This document shows positions 1-23,320 of a stretch of DNA of 24,048 nt, in pieces. The notes beneath the pieces were generated by a model. It had not been told where the DNA came from. It was given only the letters and a program-made list of their open reading frames with translations, and did no database searches. Positions within the stretch are counted from its first letter, which is position 1. Each line of letters begins with the position of its first letter. The stretch is from Chiloscyllium plagiosum. Its lineage: Eukaryota. The stretch is from the NCBI RefSeq assembly GCF_004010195.1, contig NC_057718.1, positions 100,001,186-100,025,233 of the forward strand, written 5' to 3'. The position numbers and the translations under genes were made by a program.

Positions 1-845
1 CCCTCTAAGCCTGCGCCTATCCAGATCCTCTATCTAAACCTGCCGCCTACTTTCTAAGGATCTGTATCCCGGCCCATTCATCTATCTGTCTCGATACATT
101 TGAAATGACGTTATCGTTCCCACCTCTACCACCTCTGCTGGCAATGTGTTCCAGGCCCCCACCACCCTCTATGTGAAGACCTGTCCAAGCATACCTCCCT
201 TAAACCTTTTCTCTCTCACTTTGAACTCATGGCCCCTAGTAATTGAGTTCCACACTCTGTGAAAAAGCTTCTTGCTGTCCACCCTGTCTATACCTCTCAT
301 GATTGTGTAGGCCTCAATCAGGTCCCCCTTCAACCTTCTTCCTTCCAATTAAAATAATCCTAATCTACTCAACCTCTCCTCATAGCTAGCATCCTCCATA
401 CCAGGCAACATCCTGATGATCCTCCTCTGCACCCTCTCCAAAGCATCCACATCCTTTTGGTAATGTGGCGACCAGAACTGTACGCAGTATTCCAAAAGTG
501 GCCAAACCAAAGTCTTATTCAACTGTAACATGACCCACCAACTCTTGTACTCAATACCCTGTCCAATGAAGGAAAGCATGCCATATGCCTTCTTGACCAC
601 TCTACTGATCTGCGTTGCCACCTTCAGGGAACAATGGATCTGAACACCCAGATCTCTCTCTACATCAATTTTCTTCAGGACTTTTCCATTTACTGTACAG
701 CTTACTCTTGATTTGGATCTTCCAAAATGCATCGCCTCACATTTGTCCGAATTGAACTCCATCTGTCGTTTCTCTGCCAACTCTCCAAGCTATCTACATT
801 CTGCTACATTCTCCAATAGTCCCCTTCACTATCTGCTACTCCACC
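1..845 (-). mobile_element. CR1-clade (HER1-like) LINE, 3' portion of ORF2 plus 3' UTR, 5'-truncated; runs off the window start
   Basis: ORF 349-780 reads QMEFNSDKCEAMHFG...ERDLGVQI...LEYCVQFWSPHYQKDVDALERVQRR..RMLPG..YEERLSRLGLF, the typical CR1 post-RT region. Colinear with 18826-19673 in this window. Confidence 0.95.
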
Positions 846-2977: not shown

Positions 2978-3328
2978 TTAGTGGTATTGCTACTGGTTTA
3001 GTATTCCCAGATAATATTCTGGGGACTGGGTTTTGAGCTCACTAAAATAATCTGGAATTAAGGGTTTGATGATGACCACAGCATCATGTGGTTTGCAAAT
3101 TTCTATCTTTACCTGGTCTGGTCTCCATGTGACTCCAGACCCTCAACCAATATGGTTGACTCTTAACTGTCCTCTGGTAGAATAGGGATGATCAAGGGGC
3201 GGCGCTCTGAAAGCTTGTGGTTTCAAATAAACCTGCTAGACTATAAGCTAGTGTTGTGTGACTTCTGAAATAGGGATAAGTAATTAATGTTGGCTGTACC
3301 CAGTGTTACCCACATCACGTGAATGAGT
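2978..3328 (+). mobile_element. Second SINE family (here 'SINE-B'), interrupted at 3190-3268 by a PLE fragment
   Basis: CATGTGACTCCAGACCC..CAATATGGTTGACTCTTAACTGTCCTCTGG closely matches 16959-17009. Degenerate tRNA-like head near 2978-3040. Confidence 0.7.
3190..3268 (+). mobile_element. Penelope-like family A terminal fragment
   Basis: Matches the family A end (GAAAGCT..CAAATAAACCTG..GACTATAA..GTGTTGTGTGA). Flanked by a 9-bp TSD AATAGGGAT at 3181-3189 and 3269-3277. Confidence 0.8.
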
Positions 3329-4377: not shown

Positions 4378-4500
4378 GTTACCTGATGAGGGAGCAGCAC
4401 CCCAAAAGCTGGTACTTATAATTAAATCTGTTGGACTATAACCTGGTGTTGTGCGATTTTTAATTTTGTCCACCCCAGTCCAATACTGGCATCTCCACAT
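4378..4500 (+). mobile_element. Penelope-like family A terminal fragment with a decayed hammerhead
   Basis: CTGATGA at 4383-4389, with GAAA mutated to AAAA. Colinear with 6635-6754. Possible TSD TAATG at 4373-4377 and 4501-4505. Confidence 0.85.
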
Positions 4501-6317: not shown

Positions 6318-6580
6318 CCAGGCTGTCAAATTTCATAAACGAAGTGTGATAATGCAGAGCTTGGCAGGACAACATTGTTCCTTCAAAAAGGATATATTTC
6401 AGCACCGCCACTCTCAAAACAGAACCAATGCATAATCGCATCTCAACCATTATTAACAATCATTGATCAGTTATTTATCTTTCTTTCTATCCTCAATACA
6501 AATCTTCCAAAGGATTAATAGTACATTGAATTCTTATTGTTTTAAGGTTTTGGACCATAGGGTTCTCATTGTTACTTTCA

Positions 6581-6754
6581 ATGACACTGTGTTTGTTTGC
6601 TATAAATTCTGTGTCCTATGATCCTGCCCCACAGCTACCTGATGAAGGAGCAGTGCTCTGAAAGCTAGTAATTCCAAATAAACCAGCTGGATGAGAACAT
6701 GGTGTTGTGTGATTTTTAACTTAGTCCACCCAGTCCAACACTAGCACCTCCACA
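6581..6754 (+). mobile_element. Penelope-like family A terminal fragment
   Basis: Colinear with the reverse complement of 10196-10335. 15-bp TSD with 2 mismatches: TCATTGTTACTTTCA at 6566-6580 and TCATTGCTACCTTCA at 6755-6769. Confidence 0.9.
6636..6670 (+). ncRNA. Minimal type-I hammerhead ribozyme motif (PLE family A), core intact
   Basis: TAC-CTGATGA-A-GGAGC-AGT-GCTCT-GAAA-GC-TA-GTA. Helix I is TAC/GTA, helix II is GGAGC/GCTCT, a palindromic AGCT replaces helix III, and the predicted cut follows CUA (after 6667). Confidence 0.8.
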
Positions 6755-6826
6755 TCATTGCTACCTTCAGTGCAGCAATGAGATTTGAATCACCTATCGT
6801 TGACACCTCCAAGATTGCTAAAGTTA

Positions 6827-7875: not shown

Positions 7876-8745
7876 TTGAGCGCATATCTCCACCACTCTG
7901 AATTAGTTTCAGGATGGTGCAGGTGTGGTAGATGTTCATCACAGTCTGTCCACTCCAGGCCAGTGCCATCGTTTTTTCTATGTACATTTTGTCTTTTCCT
8001 CTTTCTCTTCTTCCTTTCTTCTTCGTCTTTGGGACTGAGCATTGTCGGCGGGGTGTTGGCTGGATCATTGGTGGTGTGGATCGGGACTCTTGGTGGTGGT
8101 AGGCCTGGACCCTGGACTGTGGTGTTGGCGGTACCCAGAATCTGGACTCCTGGTGGTGGTGGTAGGCCCTGAGCTTGGACTCCTATTGGTGGTAAGCCCA
8201 GAGCCTGGACTCCTGATGGTGGTGGTGCCCAGAGCCTGGACTCCTGGTAGTGGTGGTAGGCCTGGAGCCTGAACCCCTGGTGGTGATAGGCCCAGAGCCT
8301 GGATTCCTGATGATGGCGGTGCTCAGAGCGTGGACTCCTGATGGTGGTATGCCCAGAGCCTGGAGTCTTGGCAGCAGTGGCAGCGCCCTGAGTGGGAAGC
8401 CAGTAGACAGTAGGCCCAGAGCCTGGAGTCTTGGCAGCAGTAGCAGTGCCCGGAGCTAGGATTCTATCAGCAGTAGGCCCGGAGCCTGGAGTCTTAGTGG
8501 TGGCAGCAGCAGAGCTGGAGTCTCCTGGGGCATCAGTGTCATCATTACTGTCCCCAGAACGGGACACATTGAGGCCCAGAACATCTTGCAGAGACCTTTC
8601 AGAAGCTCTGGAGAAGAGCTTAAGACCCCAATTTGAGCAGAAGATGAACTCTTATTTAAGTAATTTTTTTGTATCTTTGTTGTAACTCAGACAAAGCACA
8701 TTTCACTATATCTTCAAGGTCTATGTGACGATAAATCATTCATTC
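7876..8745 (+). mobile_element. Putative non-autonomous composite retroelement: pyrimidine-rich leader, VNTR and Rex1-like 3' tail
   Basis: The 3' end TTTCACTATATC..TATGTGACGATAAATCATTCATTC matches the Rex1 tails at 1666-1718 and 22533-22578 (reverse complements). Possible TSD ACTCAA at 7870-7875 and 8746-8751. Confidence 0.6.
8084..8526. repeat. Minisatellite/VNTR of about 14 units of 29-33 bp
   Basis: Unit consensus is approximately GGACTCCTGGTGGTGGTAGGCCCAGAGCCT. The distal units alternate as a dimer of about 63 bp. Confidence 0.95.
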
Positions 8746-9248
8746 ACTCAAGATTATTGCCCTTATCGAAGCACTCTTGCTCGACTGATATTCTGTAAGC
8801 AAGAAGTCTCAGAAAAAAATCTTTTTAAGACACAGGAGGTTCCAGGCCAGGCCATGTCTATCAATCTGCTCAGAAAACTCTGCTCACATCTTAACAGCTC
8901 TGCAAACAATCCACAACAGCAAAGTCACACCAGCACATTCTAAATCAAGCAACAATATTCCAAATAAAACAAACTTACAATATTCTTTCTAAGAAAAAAT
9001 GTCAATCCACCCTATCTCCCAATGTCTTTGAAAGAATTCTGGATCCCAATTAATATCTTTACCAGTTCTTCCTAGGGCCACACTCTATTTCTGTACTCGG
9101 CTTTGATGAAATCTGTCATATTGTTTCCAGACAGGCTAATAAATGAGGGAAACATATTATTGCAATCGACCTCAGTGAAGGTGGCAATTAACAATTGATT
9201 GAGGATACAGTGAACAGAATACTCCCCAGAATATCCTGTTCCATTGCT

Positions 9249-9680
9249 ACCTGACAAAGGAGCAGCTAGTACTTCCAAATAAACCTGTTGGACTATAACC
9301 TGTTTTTTATTAGATTACATTACAATGTGGAAACAGGCCCTTCGGCCCAACAAGTCCACACCGACCCGCCGAAGCGCAACCCACCCATACCCCTACATTT
9401 ACCCCTTACCTAACACTACGGGCAATTTAGCATGGCCAATTCACCTGACCCTGCACATCTTTGGACTGTGGGAGGAAACCGGAGCACCCGGAGGAAACCC
9501 ACGCAGATGCGGGGAGAACATGCAAACTCCACACAGTCAGTCGCCTGAGGCGGGAATTGAACCCGGGTCTCTGGCGCTGTGAGGCAACAGTGCTAACCAC
9601 TGTGCCACCATGCCGCCCACACTGGTGTTGCGTGATTTTTAACTTTGTCCACCTCAGTCCGAAACCGGCTCCTCCACATC
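9249..9680 (+). mobile_element. Penelope-like family A terminal fragment split by an HE1 SINE (9249-9302 and 9622-9680)
   Basis: GACTATAACCTG | CTGGTGTTGCGTGATTTTTAAC rejoins the family A sequence. The hammerhead is internally deleted (GGAGCAGCTAGT). Loose flanking duplication AGAATA...CATTGCT at 9228-9248 and 9681-9700. Confidence 0.85.
9304..9618 (-). mobile_element. Full-length, CpG-rich HE1-like V-SINE
   Basis: A box TGGCACAGTGG (9597-9607), B box GGTTCAATTCC (9553-9563), and a CR1-shared tail with a GGCC-GAAG-GGCC hairpin. Confidence 0.95.
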
Positions 9681-9964
9681 AGAATACTGATGGCATTGCT
9701 TATTCTGGGCTTTGTTTGTCACTGGTTCATTGGCCACACAGTTGTCTTTTCTAGTGGTGGAATGATAATAAAGTTATTTCCACTTGGTGGTTTTAACTGT
9801 ACCTTGCACCCGCACGCACACACACAAACATGGGTGCTGAGCAATATGGGCACTCCTGCTGTATGGCAGCAGTGTGGGGGTGGGGGGAGACAAGGAAAAA
9901 AAACTGATTCAGTGAAAAGAAACAGAATACTGCTTGCGGTTTTAATGCCCTAATCTGAGGAATG

Positions 9965-10195
9965 ATTCATGGGCATTGGAGACAATTCAGAGAAACTTGT
10001 TGACCCTCAGGCATGTCGGGTCTTTCCTATGAGGAGAGGTTGAGTAGATTGGGTCTGTGCTCATTGGAGTTTGGAAGAATTAGAGGTGACCTTATTGAAA
10101 CATACAAGAGGGATGGATGTGGAGAGATCATTTCCCCTTATGGGAGACTCTAGGACCAGAGAGCATCAGCTCAAAGTAAAGGATTGTCCATTTAA
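9965..10195 (+). mobile_element. CR1 3' fragment, first half (continues at 11187-11420)
   Basis: TATGAGGAGAGGTTGAGTAGATTGGGTCTG (YEERLSRLGL)...GGTGACCTTATTGAAACATACAAG. Confidence 0.85.
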
Positions 10196-10246
10196 AGTTA
10201 AAAATCACACAACGCCAGGTTATAGTCCAACAGGTTTATTTGAAAG

Positions 10247-10281
10247 CACTAGCTTTCGGAACGCTGCTCCTTCATCAGGAA
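10247..10281 (-). ncRNA. Minimal type-I hammerhead ribozyme motif (PLE family A), core intact
   Basis: Minus strand: TTC-CTGATGA-A-GGAGC-AGC-GTTCC-GAAA-GC-TA-GTG. Helix II pairs fully (one G-U); helix I has one mismatch. Confidence 0.75.
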
Positions 10282-10659
10282 GTTGTGGAGCAGGATCATA
10301 AGACACAGAATTTATTTCAAAAGATCACAGTGTCATGCCTAGACTGCTGTTAAGATTTTCAGTTTTTAGAATGGGTTGCAGGTTTCGGTTCATTACTATA
10401 TAAATCCCAGAACTTCTTTTAAGTCACATTCTCAAGATAGCTTAAGGTTTATAAAAAATGGAGACATTTCAGCTCAGACAATATATTAAAGGTGTGAGGT
10501 TAGAGTCTGTCTGTATCCCAATCTTGAGTCAGACTGGTTCTATTTCCAAAGTATAAAATATTACATGGATTGACTGCCTGCAGATTGTGCATTTTTTGAG
10601 CAAAATAGAATGTACCTGTAAGTATAATTCTGCAGATGCAAATTCACCCCATAGACTTA

Positions 10660-10985
10660 TATGTGTGTGTACGTGCATATGAGGGAGAGAGAGAGTGTGT
10701 GAGTCTGTGCATGTGAATGTGTGCATATAAGTGCATGTGAGACAGTGTGTTTGCACGTGTGCGTGCTTGATAGAGTTTGTATGCGAGTGTGATGGAGTAT
10801 AAGCCTGTGAGAGGGTTGTGCATGGGTGTGTATGTGTGCGTATATGTGAGAGGGCGTGTGTATGTGTGCGTATATGTGAGAGGGCTTGTGCATGAGAAAG
10901 GGTCTACGTAAGTGTGTGAATAAGTAAAATTTTGTGTGCGTGTGTGCGCACTCATTTGTGTGCGCCTGTCTGTGTGTGTGTGTAG
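10660..10985. repeat. Degenerate (TG)/(CA)-rich tract with a perfect 30-bp tandem duplication
   Basis: GTGTGTATGTGTGCGTATATGTGAGAGGGC at 10826-10855 and 10856-10885. Confidence 0.92.
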
Positions 10986-11186
10986 TGCAGTGGGGTCATC
11001 TGTGGTGTGGCATGAACAGGTTGAGGCCATCACCATGGGTACCGAACTTGGCTATCAGCCTCAGTTCAGCCACTCTGCGTTGTTGCATTCCCCGAAGTCT
11101 GCCTTGGAGGATGGTCACCCGAAGATCTGAAACCAAACGTCCCTGACTGCTGAAGTGTTCCCTGACTGGGGAAATTCTTAACAATC

Positions 11187-15762: not shown

Positions 15763-16055
15763 CTCCACTCCGTTCACACATCCCACCTTCACAATCATGG
15801 CCCACTCTATATGCAATGGGTTCCCCTGCCCTCTCAATAAATACCTCCCAGAATCAGCTTGGCTTCCCATATCTGCATTCAAAAACCCTCTCTTTGACCT
15901 TACCCCCATATGAAAAAAGCCTGGAATAAAAGGCTAGTCTAATGCTACGATCAATCGTTGTAAAGATCCAACTGATTAGCGAGTTTTAAAGAAGAGTTGT
16001 AGCTCAGGTTGAGGATCTGGATGTCGGTTTGCTCGCTGAGCTGGAAGGTTCGCTT

Positions 16056-16095
16056 TCAGACATTTCGTTACCATACGAGGTAACATCGTCAGTGA
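16056..16095 (-). ncRNA. Minimal hammerhead motif (PLE family B), core intact
   Basis: Minus strand: TCA-CTGACGA-T-GTTACC-TCGTAT-GGTAAC-GAAA-T-GTC-TGA. Perfect 6-bp helix II, GUC triplet, helix I TCA/TGA. Confidence 0.8.
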
Positions 16096-16701
16096 GCCTC
16101 CGCATGAAGCACTGCTGATGTTTCCTGTTTTCTATTTATATGTTTGGGTTTATGTGGGTTGGTGATGTCATTTCCTATGGTGATGTCATTTCCTGTTCTT
16201 TTTCTCAGGGTGTGGTAAATGGGATCCATTTACACCCACCAACACACTAAAGCAGCAGCTAATGAACTTGAAAGACTCTATACAGACAACAAGCAAAACT
16301 AATATCATTTACAAAATACCGTGCAAGGGCTGTAACAAACACCACACTGGACAAACAGGCAGAAAACTAGCCACCAGGATACATGAACATCAACTAGCCA
16401 CAAAACCACATGACCCTCTCTCACTAGTATCTTTACATAGAGATAAGGAAGGACACCACTTCGACTGGGACAACACATCCTGCCTAGGACAAGCCAAACA
16501 GATACACGCACGAGAATTCCTCGAAGCATGGCTTTCCAACTGGAACTCTATCAACAAGCGCATTGACTTGGACCCCAATTATCACCCCCTGAGAAAAAGA
16601 ACAGGAAATGATATCACCATAGGAAATGACATCACCAGCCCAAAGAAACCCAAACATACAAATAGAAAGCAGGAAACATCAGCAGTGCTTCGTCTAGAGG
16701 C

Positions 16702-16741
16702 TCACTGGAGATGTTACCTAGTATGGTGACGAAACGTCTGA
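16702..16741 (+). ncRNA. Hammerhead motif (PLE family B), core mutated
   Basis: TCA-CTGGAGA-T-GTTACC-TAGTAT-GGTGAC-GAAA-C-GTC-TGA. Conserved A6 is changed to G; the palindromic ACGT is retained. Confidence 0.65.
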
Positions 16742-16847
16742 AAATAAACCTTCCAGCTCAGCGAGCAAACCTACATCCATATCCAACTGATTCACTAATG
16801 GCCTTTAGGGAAGCTAATCTACTGTCCTTATCCTGTCTGACCTACAT

Positions 16848-18770: not shown

Positions 18771-21552
18771 GAACAAAGAACAAAGAAGAACAAAGAATCT
18801 TACAGCACAGGAACAGGCCCTTCGGCCCTCCAAGCCTGCGCTGATCCAGATTCTCTATCTAAACCTGTTGCCTATTTTTTAAGGATCTGTATCTCTCTGC
18901 TCCCTGCCCATTCATGTATCTGTCTAGATACATCTTAAATGGGGCTATCGTGCCTTTCCCTACCACCTCCGCTGGCAACCTGGTCCAGGTACCCACCACC
19001 CTCTGCATAAAGAACTTTACATGCATATCTCCCTTAAACTTTTCCCCTCTCACCTTGAAGTCATGACCCCGAGTAATTGTGTCCCCCTCTCTGGGAAAAA
19101 GCTTCTTGCTATCCACCCTGTAGGGTGGACCTCTCATGATTTTGTAGACTTCAATCAGGTCCCCCCTCAACCTCTATCTTTCTAATGAAAATAATCCTAA
19201 TCTACTCAACCTGTCCTTATAGCTAGCACCCTCCATACCAGACAACATCCTGATGATCCACCTCTGCACCCTCTTCTAAGCATCCACATCCTTTTGGTAA
19301 TGTGGCAACCGGAACTGTACGCAGTATTCCAAATTTGGCCGAACCAAAGTCCTATACAACTGTAACATTACCTGCCAACTCTTGTACTCAATACCCCATC
19401 TGAAGAAGGAAAACCTGTCTTCTTGACCACTCTATTGATCTGCGTAACCACCTTCAGGGTACAATGGACCTGAACACCCAGATCTCTCTGTACATCAATT
19501 TTCCCAAGACTTTTCCATTTACTGTGTATTTGCTCTTGAATTGGATCTTCCAAAATGCATCGCCTCACATTTACCCAGATTGAACTCCATCTGCTATTTC
19601 TCCACCCAACTCTCTAGTCTATCTATATTCTGCTGCATTCTCTGACAGTTCCCTTTACTATCTGCTACTCCACCAATCTTAGTGTCATCTGCAAACTTGC
19701 TATTGAGACCACCTATACCTTCTTCCAAATCATTTATGTATATCACAAACAATAGTGGTCCCAGAATGGATCCCTATGGAACACTATTGGTCACAGGTCT
19801 CCATTTTGAGAAACTCCCTTCCACTACTATTCTCTGTCTCCTGTTGCCCAGCCAGTTCTCTATCCATCTAGCTAGGACACCCTGGACCCCATGCAACTTC
19901 ATTCTCTCCATCAACCTACCATGTTGAATCTTATCAAACACCTTACTGGAGTCCATATATATGACATCTACAGCACTTCCCTCATCAATCAACTTTGTCA
20001 CTTCCTCAAAGAATTCTATTTAGATGGTAAGACATGATCTTCCCTGCACAAAACCATGTTGCCTATCACTGATAAGCCCATTTTCTACCAAATGTAAGTA
20101 GATCCTATCCCTCAGCATGTTCTCCAGCAGCTTCCATACCACTGACGTCAGGCTTACTGGCCTATAATTACCTGGACTATCCCTGCTACCCTTCTTAAAC
20201 ATTAGCAATTTGCCAGTCCCCCGTGTTCAAGGATGCTGCAAAGAAATCTGTTAAAGCCCCAGCTATTTCCCCTCTCACTTCCCTCAGTAACCTGGGATAG
20301 ATGCCATCCGGATATGGGGACTTGTCCACCTTAATGCCTTTTAGAATACCCAACATTTCCTCCCTCCTTATGCCGACTTGACCTAGAGTAATCAAATATC
20401 TATCCCTAAACTCATTATCCGTCATGTCCCTCTCCTCGGTGAATACTGACACCAAATACTCATTAAGAATCTTACCCATTTTCTCTGAGTCTACGCATAA
20501 CTTTCCTCCTTTGTCCTTATATAGGCCAACCCTTTGTCTAGTTATCCTCTTGCTCTTTATATATGAGTAACAGGCTTTGGAATTTTTCTTAACCCTATTT
20601 GCGAAAGATATTTCATGACCCGTTTCAGCCCTCTTAATTCCTCATTTCAGATTGGTCCTACTTTTCCGATATTCTTCCAAAGCTTCATCTGTTTTCTGTC
20701 ACCTAAACCTTACGATAGCTTCCCTTTCCCTCTTGGTGATCTCATAATTTCACTTGTCATCCATGGTTCCCTAATCTTGCCATTTCTATCCCTCATTTTC
20801 ACAGCGACATGTCTGGCCTGCACTCTAATAAAACTCTCTTTAAAAGCCTCCCACATATCAAATATGGAGTTATCTCCAAACAGCTGCTCCCAATCCACAT
20901 TCCCCAACTCCTGCGAATTTTGCTACAGTTGGCCTTCCCCCAATTTAGCACTCTTCCTTTAGGACCACTCTCATCTTTGTCCATGAGTATTGCAAAACCT
21001 ACGGAATTGTGATCACTATTCCCAAAATAATCCGCTACTGAAGCTTCACCCACCTGGCCGGGCTTATTTCCCAAAACTAGGTCCCAGTATGGCCCCTTCC
21101 TGAGTTGGACTACTTATATACTGCTCTAGAAAACCCTCCTGGTTGCTCCTTACAAATTCTGCTCCATCTGAACCTCAAACACTATGTGAATCCCAGTCAA
21201 TGTTGGGTAAATTAAAATCGCTTATCACCACCACACTGTTGCTCCTACATCTTTCCATGGTCTGTTCACATATTTGTACCTCTATCTCACACTCGCTGTT
21301 GGGAGGCCTGTAGTACAGCCCCAATATTGTTACCGCGCCCTTCCTATTTCTGAGTTCTGACCATATTGCCTCACTGCTGGAGTCCTGCATAGTGCCCTCC
21401 TTCAGCACAGCTGTGATATCCTCTCTGACCAGTAATGCAACTCCTCCAGCCCTTTAACCTCCCTCTCTATCCCGCCTGAAGCATCGATATTCTGGGGTAT
21501 TTAATTGCCAATCTTGCCCTTCCCTCAACCAAGTGTCAGTAATAGCAATAAC
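18771..21552 (-). mobile_element. CR1-clade (HER1-like) LINE of about 2.8 kb: disrupted ORF2 (APE endonuclease and RT) plus 3' UTR
   Basis: APE motifs VIAITDTWL, LGLYYRPPN, VVISDFNLPNIDW and GNSDHN. RT motifs KSPYPDGIYPR, PGNYRPVSLTS, QHGFVQGRSCLT, VDVIYMDSSKVFD, SVP*GSILGP (stop in PQG) and FADD at 19684-19695. (GAACAAA)n tail at 18771-18797. Confidence 0.97.
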
Positions 21553-22645: not shown

Positions 22646-22657
22646 AGTCAAAATTAT

Positions 22658-23243
22658 AAGTCTGTAAGTTAGTTCGCTGAGCTGGAAGGTTTATTTTCAG
22701 ACGTTTTGTCACCATGACTAGGTAGCATCATCAGTGAGCATGTCCGATGAAGCGCTGGTGGTATGTCCCACTACTCTATTTATAGGTTTTGGTTTCTTAA
22801 GATGGGTGATAGGATACATGAACACCAACTGACCATCGAAAGACATGACCCACTCTCACTAGTTTCTATATATACAGACAAACAAGGACACCACTTTGAC
22901 TGGGACAACACACACATCCTGGGACAGGCAAAACAAGGGACATGCATGAGAATTCCTGGAGGCCTGGCCATTCTAACCAGAACTCCATCAATAAACACAT
23001 CAATTTAGATCCTATCGACTTTCCTTTAAAAAAAGCAGAATCGGAAATGATATCACCCACCTTAAGAAACCAAGACCTATCAGTAGAGAGGCGGAACATA
23101 CCACCAGCGCTTCACCAGAGACTCTCACTGATGATGTTACCTAATCATGGTGACGAAACATCTGAAAACAAATCTTCCAGCTCAGCGAGCTAACTTACAG
23201 ACGTATCATCAACCTGAGCTGCAAATCTTCTCAAAAAATCGCG
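22658..23243 (+). mobile_element. Penelope-like family B element with inverted arms
   Basis: RIHEHQLTIERHDPLSLVS...GHHFDWDNTHILGQAKQ is homologous to the ORF at 16262. Inverted arms at 22660-22810 and 23052-23202. TSD AGTCAAAATTAT at 22646-22657 and AGACAAAATTAT at 23244-23255. Confidence 0.92.
23125..23165 (+). ncRNA. Minimal hammerhead motif (PLE family B), core intact
   Basis: TCA-CTGATGA(23128-23134)-T-GTTACC-TAATCAT-GGTGAC-GAAA-C-ATC-TGA, with an AUC triplet. The antisense copy at about 22697-22737 has GAAA mutated to AAAA. Confidence 0.75.
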
Positions 23244-23320
23244 AGACAAAATTATTCCTATTCTGTTCTGAGCATATACCTCCTCTAACTTATTCACATT
23301 TTAACGTACCAGAGGTCAAT

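What the first reader, a model, noticed from the sequence alone, without database searches (positions are those of the whole stretch)
6636..6670. Dispersed short repeat (family A) carries a minimal hammerhead ribozyme
Seen: TAC-CTGATGA-A-GGAGC-AGT-GCTCT-GAAA-GC-TA-GTA has both catalytic boxes, a 5-bp helix II, a 3-bp helix I, a CUA (NUH) site and a palindromic AGCT in place of helix III. Related copies lie at 3190, 4383, 9251 and 10247. Known: Penelope-like elements carry minimal type-I hammerheads whose palindromic helix III implies cleavage as dimers, and an extra base after CUGANGA is tolerated in some natural hammerheads. Inference: five copies in 24 kb suggest a very abundant ribozyme-bearing family in this shark genome. 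I cannot tell whether this particular family has been described.
Basis: partly seen in the sequence, partly recalled or inferred. Interest (0 to 1): 0.75.

Follow-up and report, generated by a model that had tools for sequence, protein, structure and literature searches.

The report
Penelope retrotransposon stub with minimal hammerhead
This 35-base motif matches the already described miniature self-cutting RNA (hammerhead) at the ends of Penelope-type jumping genes, and it sits in a decayed leftover end of such an element, so it is ordinary and this copy likely does not cut on its own.

Summary
The motif at 6636-6670 is exactly as described. It fits the published minimal-hammerhead descriptor for Penelope-like elements (3 window hits; 0 hits in 1000 shuffles). 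Family A is the 3' terminal repeat of a Penelope-like element (PLE), not a free-standing ribozyme repeat. The copy at 10196-11186 (-) runs upstream into the end of a GIY-YIG endonuclease frame, and one 9-bp target duplication flanks the whole block. The focal copy (6581-6757) is a 5'-truncated insertion with a 15-bp duplication (13/15) and the 35-36-nt PLE 'tail'. Only 1 of 5 family-A copies fits the descriptor fully, 2 of 5 keep both boxes, and the focal copy has G.U at the conserved 10.1-11.1 pair. All five span the predicted cut, so their templates were likely uncut. In shark-like sequencing runs the catalytic G12 decays about as often as a neighbouring CpG, so dispersed copies look neutral. 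Cleavage was not tested, and helix covariation is only suggestive. No paper on this family was found, but the class is known, and this scan noted it before in this genome and at least 35 others. Verdict: new member of a known kind, low interest.

The parts
6581..6757 (+). Focal family-A insertion: 5'-truncated 3' pseudo-LTR plus tail of a Penelope-like element
   Evidence: 85% identity over 142 nt to 10195-10336(-); flanked by a duplication; family depth falls sharply after about 6758
6636..6670 (+). Minimal type-I hammerhead motif; predicted cut after 6667; G.U at 10.1-11.1
   Evidence: descriptor from PMC4209133 Fig S7
6566..6580 (+). Left copy of the 15-bp target-site duplication (13 of 15 identical)
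   Evidence: 37 of 5000 random zone pairs score as high
6755..6769 (+). Right copy of the target-site duplication; its first bases overlap the element end
6723..6757 (+). Optional 35-36-nt AC-rich PLE tail, present in 3 of 5 window copies
6676..6681 (+). AATAAA 9 nt after the predicted cut; possible poly(A) signal, function untested
   Evidence: sequence; a similar motif follows the family-B hammerheads
10196..11186 (-). Longer family-A insertion: GIY-YIG end + microsatellite-rich 3' region + pseudo-LTR without tail, inside a LINE fragment
   Evidence: 9-bp exact duplication 10187-10195/11187-11195 (28 of 5000)
11009..11178 (-). C-terminal remnant of a PLE GIY-YIG endonuclease frame (P0001, 56 aa)
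   Evidence: 54% identity over 50 aa to the C terminus of an 881-aa RT protein
10247..10281 (-). Second family-A hammerhead: both boxes, G-C at 10.1-11.1, helix I mismatch
4378..4500 (+). Family-A copy starting at about the first base of helix I, with tail; core broken; no convincing duplication
3190..3268 (+). Family-A copy starting inside box 1, no tail; 9-bp duplication 3181-3189/3269-3277
9233..9681 (+). Family-A copy with tail, broken core, split by a SINE-like repeat at about 9302-9621; 9-bp duplication 9215-9223/9680-9688

Best explanation
The motif is a minimal hammerhead carried in the 3' terminal repeat of a Penelope-like retrotransposon (likely Neptune clade), and this copy is a decayed, 5'-truncated stub likely reverse-transcribed from uncut element RNA. 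Shown: the motif fits the published descriptor; a sister copy is contiguous with a GIY-YIG C-terminal remnant inside one target duplication; the family has two 3' ends about 35 nt apart; all five window copies run across the predicted cut. Inferred from the Anolis PLE work: the element's protein nicks AT-rich DNA, starts reverse transcription at one of two internal sites 55 and about 90 nt past the cut, and stops early, leaving 80-1000-nt stubs with 9-15-bp duplications. Inferred: in source elements the motif cleaves after N17 only weakly, either when two copies pair their AGCU palindromes (4-bp helix III) or with help from the element's protein. Dispersed copies then decay neutrally, and the focal copy (single, G.U at 10.1-11.1) likely does not cut in vivo.
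For: Descriptor fit with 0 of 1000 shuffles. P0001 finds 31 relatives at E<=0.001; P0020 is an 881-aa RVT_1 protein matched at its C terminus, and P0005 has a sub-threshold GIY-YIG hit. Duplications flank 4 of 5 copies, null 21-37 of 5000 each. In other genomes, overlapping contigs and joints link hammerhead, 3' region and GIY-YIG end (tables 5 and 8). Sharp 3' ends with random flanks at the equivalents of 6722 and 6758 match the 30-40-bp tail described in PMC11167929 and PMC8557442. G12>A is 9-12% of laid depth, like the neighbouring CpG G6655>A at 12-14%. Variants above 3% fall at loop II, N17 (A or U), CpG sites and helix I, where U-A, U.G and C-G all pair. In PMC11167929, hammerhead mutants do not stop insertion in vitro and cleavage needs the protein.
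Against: No full-length family-A element was seen, because no genome is held and no contig spans the 1.1-kb stretch. The Neptune call rests on a 54%-identical homolog. Pfam gives P0001 itself no hit. Rfam finds no hammerhead. Folding does not favour the hammerhead fold: z = -0.09, and helix I probability is 0.03 in a 55-nt context. Covariation is from unphased marginal frequencies biased toward the reference. Non-ribozyme positions downstream are equally invariant, so core invariance alone is not evidence of selection. TSD search zones were chosen by eye.
Confidence: 0.85

Rival explanations
1. Family A is an independent SINE-like or retrozyme-like mini-element of 120-180 nt that is transcribed, cut and copied as its own unit by a PLE protein.
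For: The hammerhead and downstream ~85 nt carry about 25-40 times the summed contig depth of the upstream part. Hundreds of contigs end near the start of helix I with random flanks. A few contigs show go-back joints.
Against: 5' starts in the window are scattered (55, about 17, 0 and about 900 nt upstream of helix I, and one inside box 1), and one copy includes the ORF end. There are no tandem arrays in the window. The depth step is confounded by reference bias and sibling subfamilies.
Confidence: 0.1
2. The focal copy is an active ribozyme that matters to the host, for example by cutting a host transcript.
For: It is the only one of five window copies that fits the descriptor fully, and helix II is predicted at 0.70-0.95 if the RNA begins at helix I.
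Against: It differs from the sister copy at 22 of 142 positions and has G.U at 10.1-11.1. It has no intact same-strand partner in the window. Helix II probability is <=0.06 with 40-58 nt of upstream sequence. A published single min-HHR showed no cleavage. With many copies, some keep 35 nt intact by chance.
Confidence: 0.03
3. The match is a chance look-alike, or a motif that was never catalytic in this family.
For: No Rfam hit; folding energy like shuffles; 8 of 9 Xenopus dimer elements tested in a preprint did not cleave.
Against: 0 of 1000 shuffles give any descriptor hit. An unrelated PLE family in the same window has the same core with different, paired helices at the same place in its terminal repeat.
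Confidence: 0.05

Closest known systems
Minimal hammerheads (min-HHR) of metazoan Penelope-like elements (Cervera and De la Pena 2014, PMC4209133; main text parts 1-2 of 4 and the whole supplementary PDF read)
   Same: CUGANGA + one extra nucleotide, helix II of 3-7 bp, GAAA-NN-UH with a palindrome in place of helix III, short helix I, position in the terminal repeat after the endonuclease, mostly solitary truncated copies. The turtle (Chrysemys) example in Fig S3 has the same GAAA-GC-U(H) box and an AAAUAAA just downstream.
   Different: No cartilaginous fish is among the Fig S3 examples. Loop II is only 3 nt and N17 is mostly A. The focal copy has G.U where G10.1-C11.1 is typical.
Poseidon_Ac PLE of Anolis (Frangieh et al. 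2024, PMC11167929; parts 1-2 of 4 read)
   Same: Hammerhead in the terminal repeat, two RT start sites that define an AC-rich tail, AT-rich targets, insertion from uncut RNA.
   Different: Poseidon clade, whereas family A's closest full-length homolog has a Neptune-type Cys linker. There the ORF starts at stem II; here the ATG in box 1 is closed after 8 codons.
Neptune-clade EN+ PLEs (Craig et al. 2021, PMC8557442, passages; Arkhipova et al. 2013, PMC3846280, passages)
   Same: C-terminal GIY-YIG, 5' truncation, optional 30-40-bp tail, 8-10-bp target duplications in the rotifer examples.
   Different: The RT and Zn-finger-like linker of family A itself were not recovered; the focal duplication is 15 bp.
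Animal non-LTR retrozymes (Li et al. 2026, bioRxiv 10.64898/2026.07.22.740005; parts 1 and 3 of 5 and passages read; supplements closed)
   Same: Type-I hammerhead in sequence derived from PLE terminal repeats; also found in the one chondrichthyan sampled.
   Different: Retrozymes are defined as tandem arrays with at least two intact motifs; family A here is dispersed, single and mostly broken.

Membership tests
PLE minimal hammerhead | CUGANGA box plus one extra nucleotide before helix II | tested here: met
   6639-6646
PLE minimal hammerhead | Helix II 3-7 bp with loop 3-10 nt | tested here: met
   5 pairs, 3-nt loop
PLE minimal hammerhead | G10.1-C11.1 pair (usual, not part of the descriptor) | tested here: inconclusive
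   G.U in the focal copy; G-C in the 10278 copy and in 40-45% of laid depth despite reference bias
PLE minimal hammerhead | GAAA-NN-UH with palindromic 15.1-16.1 | tested here: met
   6660-6667, AGCU palindrome
PLE minimal hammerhead | Helix I of at least 3 bp | tested here: met
   3 of 3 pairs in the focal copy; 2 of 3 in the 10278 copy
PLE minimal hammerhead | Lies in the terminal repeat downstream of a PLE ORF | tested here: met
   10196-11186(-) block with one duplication
PLE minimal hammerhead | Compensatory changes within the family | tested here: inconclusive
   Unphased: 6636 U>C 21-42%, 6670 A>G 46-79%; all common combinations except C-A pair; no phased alignment beyond five window copies
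PLE minimal hammerhead | Self-cleavage after N17, as dimer or protein-assisted | not testable with these tools
   needs an in vitro assay
EN+ Penelope-like element | C-terminal GIY-YIG endonuclease | tested here: met
   P0001 54% identical to the C terminus of RVT_1 protein P0020; only the last 50 aa are in the window
EN+ Penelope-like element | Target-site duplication | tested here: met
   4 of 5 copies
EN+ Penelope-like element | Optional 30-40-bp tail | tested here: met
   two 3' ends 35-36 nt apart; 3 of 5 window copies tailed
EN+ Penelope-like element | Partial-tandem or inverted terminal repeats | tested here: inconclusive
   none for family A in the window; a few opposite-strand and go-back joints in contigs
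Neptune clade | CX2-5CxxC linker and RT phylogeny | not testable with these tools
   family A's own RT and linker were not recovered; homolog P0020 has C-x4-C-xx-C
Non-LTR retrozyme | Tandem array with at least two intact hammerheads | tested here: not met
   dispersed single copies in the window; the rest of the genome was not available

The most novel reading that the evidence does not exclude
The element's RNA starts at the first base of helix I, and the hammerhead can fold only in RNA that starts there, because the upstream leader pairs with the 5' strand of helix II. The motif would then be a position-dependent switch: competent in the 5' repeat of a tandem element, masked in the 3' repeat and in read-through host RNA. 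That would explain why insertions span the cut and why so many stubs begin at helix I. Support is thin. Contig ends and fold-back joints pile up at helix I, and predicted helix II falls from 0.70-0.95 to <=0.06 with a long leader in the focal copy. But the 7-nt leader complement in the sister copy is matched by 290 of 5000 shuffles, and that copy loses helix II even without the leader when 85 nt are folded. The start-at-helix-I half comes from earlier notes of this scan.
Probability: 0.15. Interest if true: 0.5.

Novelty: new member of a known kind. Interest (0 to 1): 0.2.

Why it matters
As it stands it adds a shark-like family to a known class and shows, within 24 kb, how such motifs spread: as truncated ends of a Penelope-like element with target duplications and an optional tail, not as working ribozymes. 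What PLE hammerheads do in vivo is still open (PMC4209133, PMC11167929). A family this abundant makes it testable from DNA alone where the RNA starts, where reverse transcription starts and whether cut RNA is ever inserted. This window does not settle that.

Tried and rejected
Rfam at E<=10: 7 matches, none a hammerhead. Whole-genome search: no genome is held, so there is no copy count and no phased covariation. Family motifs in metagenome, viral and prokaryote collections: 0 loci each. Protein-guided locus search: 99 pattern matches, 0 confirmed. Word-index protein search with P0001: none; the full HMMER search found 31. Pfam on P0001: 0 families; on P0002: 1 spurious weak hit. Expression: no RNA holder on record; a raw single-cell RNA run laid 0 reads, which the tool calls no test; two runs only guessed to be RNA hold the family, so nothing is concluded. 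Depth profiles were rejected as fine boundary evidence because they dip wherever the reference copy differs from the family. None of the loose-end rows shown lies at the cut (18 of 803 shown, 24 of 3178), which does not prove absence. Cofolding two copies did not give the hammerhead dimer as the minimum-energy form; this model has no tertiary contacts, so it is uninformative. Target duplication for the 4380 copy (260 of 5000) and for family B 16013-16784 (4785 of 5000): not convincing. An extra G before helix I was not seen in the 7 loose-end consensus rows at that boundary, but these are mixtures. Literature on this family: 'shark genome'+Penelope+hammerhead ribozyme 0 papers; ribozyme+Penelope+Chiloscyllium 0; hammerhead ribozyme+cartilaginous fish 1 irrelevant; Penelope+elasmobranch+repeat+SINE 3, listing only. 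Lunse et al. (PMC5785218) is not held and is known only through a review passage. Repbase and Dfam could not be searched, so the family may already be catalogued, and the closed bioRxiv supplements may list it.

Full report
Observation. The motif is at 6636-6670 as written. I coded the minimal-hammerhead descriptor of Cervera and De la Pena (PMC4209133, Fig S7) and ran it on both strands. It gives 3 hits (6639+, 16092-, 23128+) and none in 1000 dinucleotide shuffles. The looser two-box pattern alone gives 10 matches against a chance mean of 3.45. Hammerhead numbering puts N17 at A6667, so the predicted cut is after 6667. Rfam has no matching model at E<=10. The paper's own list of typical features is also met: an extra base after A9, and a palindrome at helix III. 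The exception is the 10.1-11.1 pair, which is G.U here.

The other copies. All four exist, but only 10278(-) keeps both boxes, and it has a U-U mismatch in helix I. The 4383 copy has lost G12 and has G at N17. The 3190 copy starts inside box 1 with G8>C. The 9251 copy has G8>A and an 11-nt deletion. So 1 of 5 fits fully. The two best copies differ at 22 of 142 positions.

What family A is. On the minus strand the 10278 copy continues upstream through about 300 nt of multicopy sequence and a CA-rich microsatellite region into an open frame, 11178-11009. That 56-aa peptide finds 31 relatives among 1.84 billion proteins. One is the C terminus of an 881-aa protein with an RVT_1 domain (54% identity over 50 aa) that has a C-x4-C-xx-C linker before a GIY-YIG-like region, the Neptune/Nematis layout. 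Another has a weak Pfam GIY-YIG hit below the cut-off (E 0.0017). Of 7 relatives looked up, 3 carried names, all sharks, which agrees with a shark-like genome. The whole block 10196-11186 sits between two exact 9-bp copies of LINE sequence, so ORF end and hammerhead repeat arrived as one insertion. In public runs, overlapping contigs and joints connect the same parts (10239-10439, 10338-10583, 10471-10677, 10598-10816, joint 10816 to 11020, 11017-11170), although no single contig spans the stretch.

Insertion anatomy. Duplications flank 4 of 5 copies: 15 bp (13 of 15) for the focal copy and 9 bp exact for three others, each reached by 21-37 of 5000 random zone pairs. The fifth is unconvincing at 260 of 5000 (zones chosen by eye around homology-defined ends). 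PLE duplications of 8-10 bp are described in PMC3846280. The family has two 3' ends. Contigs leave with random flanks at 10196-10197 (equivalent to 6722; 416 and 356 contigs in X1, 698 in X11; agreement 0.34-0.38) and at 6758 (231 contigs in X11, agreement 0.35; summed depth in X1 falls from 166,868 to 4,259). The 35-36 nt between them are AC-rich and present in 3 of 5 window copies. This matches the optional 30-40-bp PLE tail, which in the Anolis element lies between two RT start sites. All targets are AT-rich at the 3' junction.

Abundance and decay. 17,133, 14,601 and 21,432 contigs were laid on the 221-nt focal stretch in three runs. This shows a very abundant family but is not a copy number. 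Variants above 3% (40 of 48 rows shown) inside the motif fall at 2.3, loop II, the two CpG sites, N17 (A>U, 9-16%) and the helix I 3' strand. G12>A is 9.4-11.6%, close to 11.8-14.3% for the other CpG G, so inserted copies are not protected even at the general base (role of G12: PMC6155905). U-A, U.G and C-G at 2.3-1.3 and A or U at N17 are what a constrained source would allow, but the data are unphased and biased toward the reference, and downstream non-ribozyme positions are just as invariant. I count covariation as suggestive only. Across families the case is better: family B has the same core with different, paired helices.

5' side. Contigs also leave near the first base of helix I with low-agreement flanks (6637: 240, 244, 356 contigs; 10279: 656, 849, 131, 100; agreement 0.36-0.38), and several opposite-strand joints fall there. 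One window copy (4380) starts there. Sibling subfamilies with other leaders, and reference mismatches next to that position, could contribute. All five window copies contain both sides of the cut.

Folding. The focal motif is no more stable than shuffles (z -0.09). In a 55-nt context helix II has probability 0.15 and helix I 0.03, because the leader pairs with helix II's 5' strand. With only 3 nt upstream of C3, helix II rises to 0.70-0.95 in the focal copy and 0.01-0.59 in the sister copy; with 40-58 nt it is <=0.06 in both. The 7-nt leader complement in the sister copy is not significant (290 of 5000 shuffles). Cofolding did not return the hammerhead dimer, but the model lacks tertiary contacts.

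Mechanism. Shown: a PLE 3' end, truncated and TSD-flanked, spanning an intact cut site. From the literature: a single min-HHR did not cleave and dimers cleaved weakly (review passage); the Anolis hammerhead cleaves only with protein, and its mutants still insert; 8 of 9 Xenopus dimer elements were inactive. Inferred: family A's source elements use a weak, dimer- or protein-dependent cut, perhaps late in the cycle; most insertions come from uncut RNA; the focal copy is inert. Confidence is 0.85 for identity and origin. That a young family member cleaves under some condition is likely but untested.

Comparison and novelty. It meets every sequence feature of the published descriptor and the PLE insertion hallmarks I could test. 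It fails the tandem criterion for retrozymes within this window. Four searches found no paper on this family, but repeat databases and closed supplements were not seen. This scan has 768 notes with these words in at least 36 genomes, several in this genome. They are unchecked AI notes and not independent support. I took from them the idea that the RNA starts at helix I, and did not test their U6-fusion claim. Verdict: real, new member of a known kind, interest 0.2.

Noticed in passing
window 16013-16784 and 22653-23246: A second, unrelated PLE family (B): inverted terminal repeats around GIY-YIG remnants (P0002 at 16202-16726), with four hammerhead positions (16092-, 16705+, 23128+, 22734-). 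Two fit the descriptor but have lost the helix III palindrome; the other two have one core change each. The second block has a 9-bp duplication at 22649-22657/23247-23255.
   Followed up: partly
window 6676-6684, 16743-16751: Families A and B share AATAAACC shortly after the predicted cut, and the published turtle and Xenopus examples show a similar motif; possibly a poly(A) signal coupled to the hammerhead.
   Followed up: no
window 10240-10257 (-): In the sister copy the second box and the cut site can fold into a 6-bp hairpin with the bases just downstream, an alternative inactive fold.
   Followed up: partly
window 9302-9621: A SINE-like repeat with several relatives in the window is inserted into the 9251 family-A copy, so it is younger than that copy.
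   Followed up: no
proteins P0012, P0018, P0025: Predicted host proteins (a shark FAM210B isoform and two 7tm_1 receptors) include this PLE endonuclease fragment, either gene-model artefacts or exonised repeats.
   Followed up: no
window 8070-8530: GC-rich minisatellite of 30-33-nt units; already noted by the scan as e1-9101376.
   Followed up: no
window 1-830 and 18790-21540 (-): Two LINE-like fragments, 81-88% alike over their shared part, with RT-like frames.
   Followed up: no
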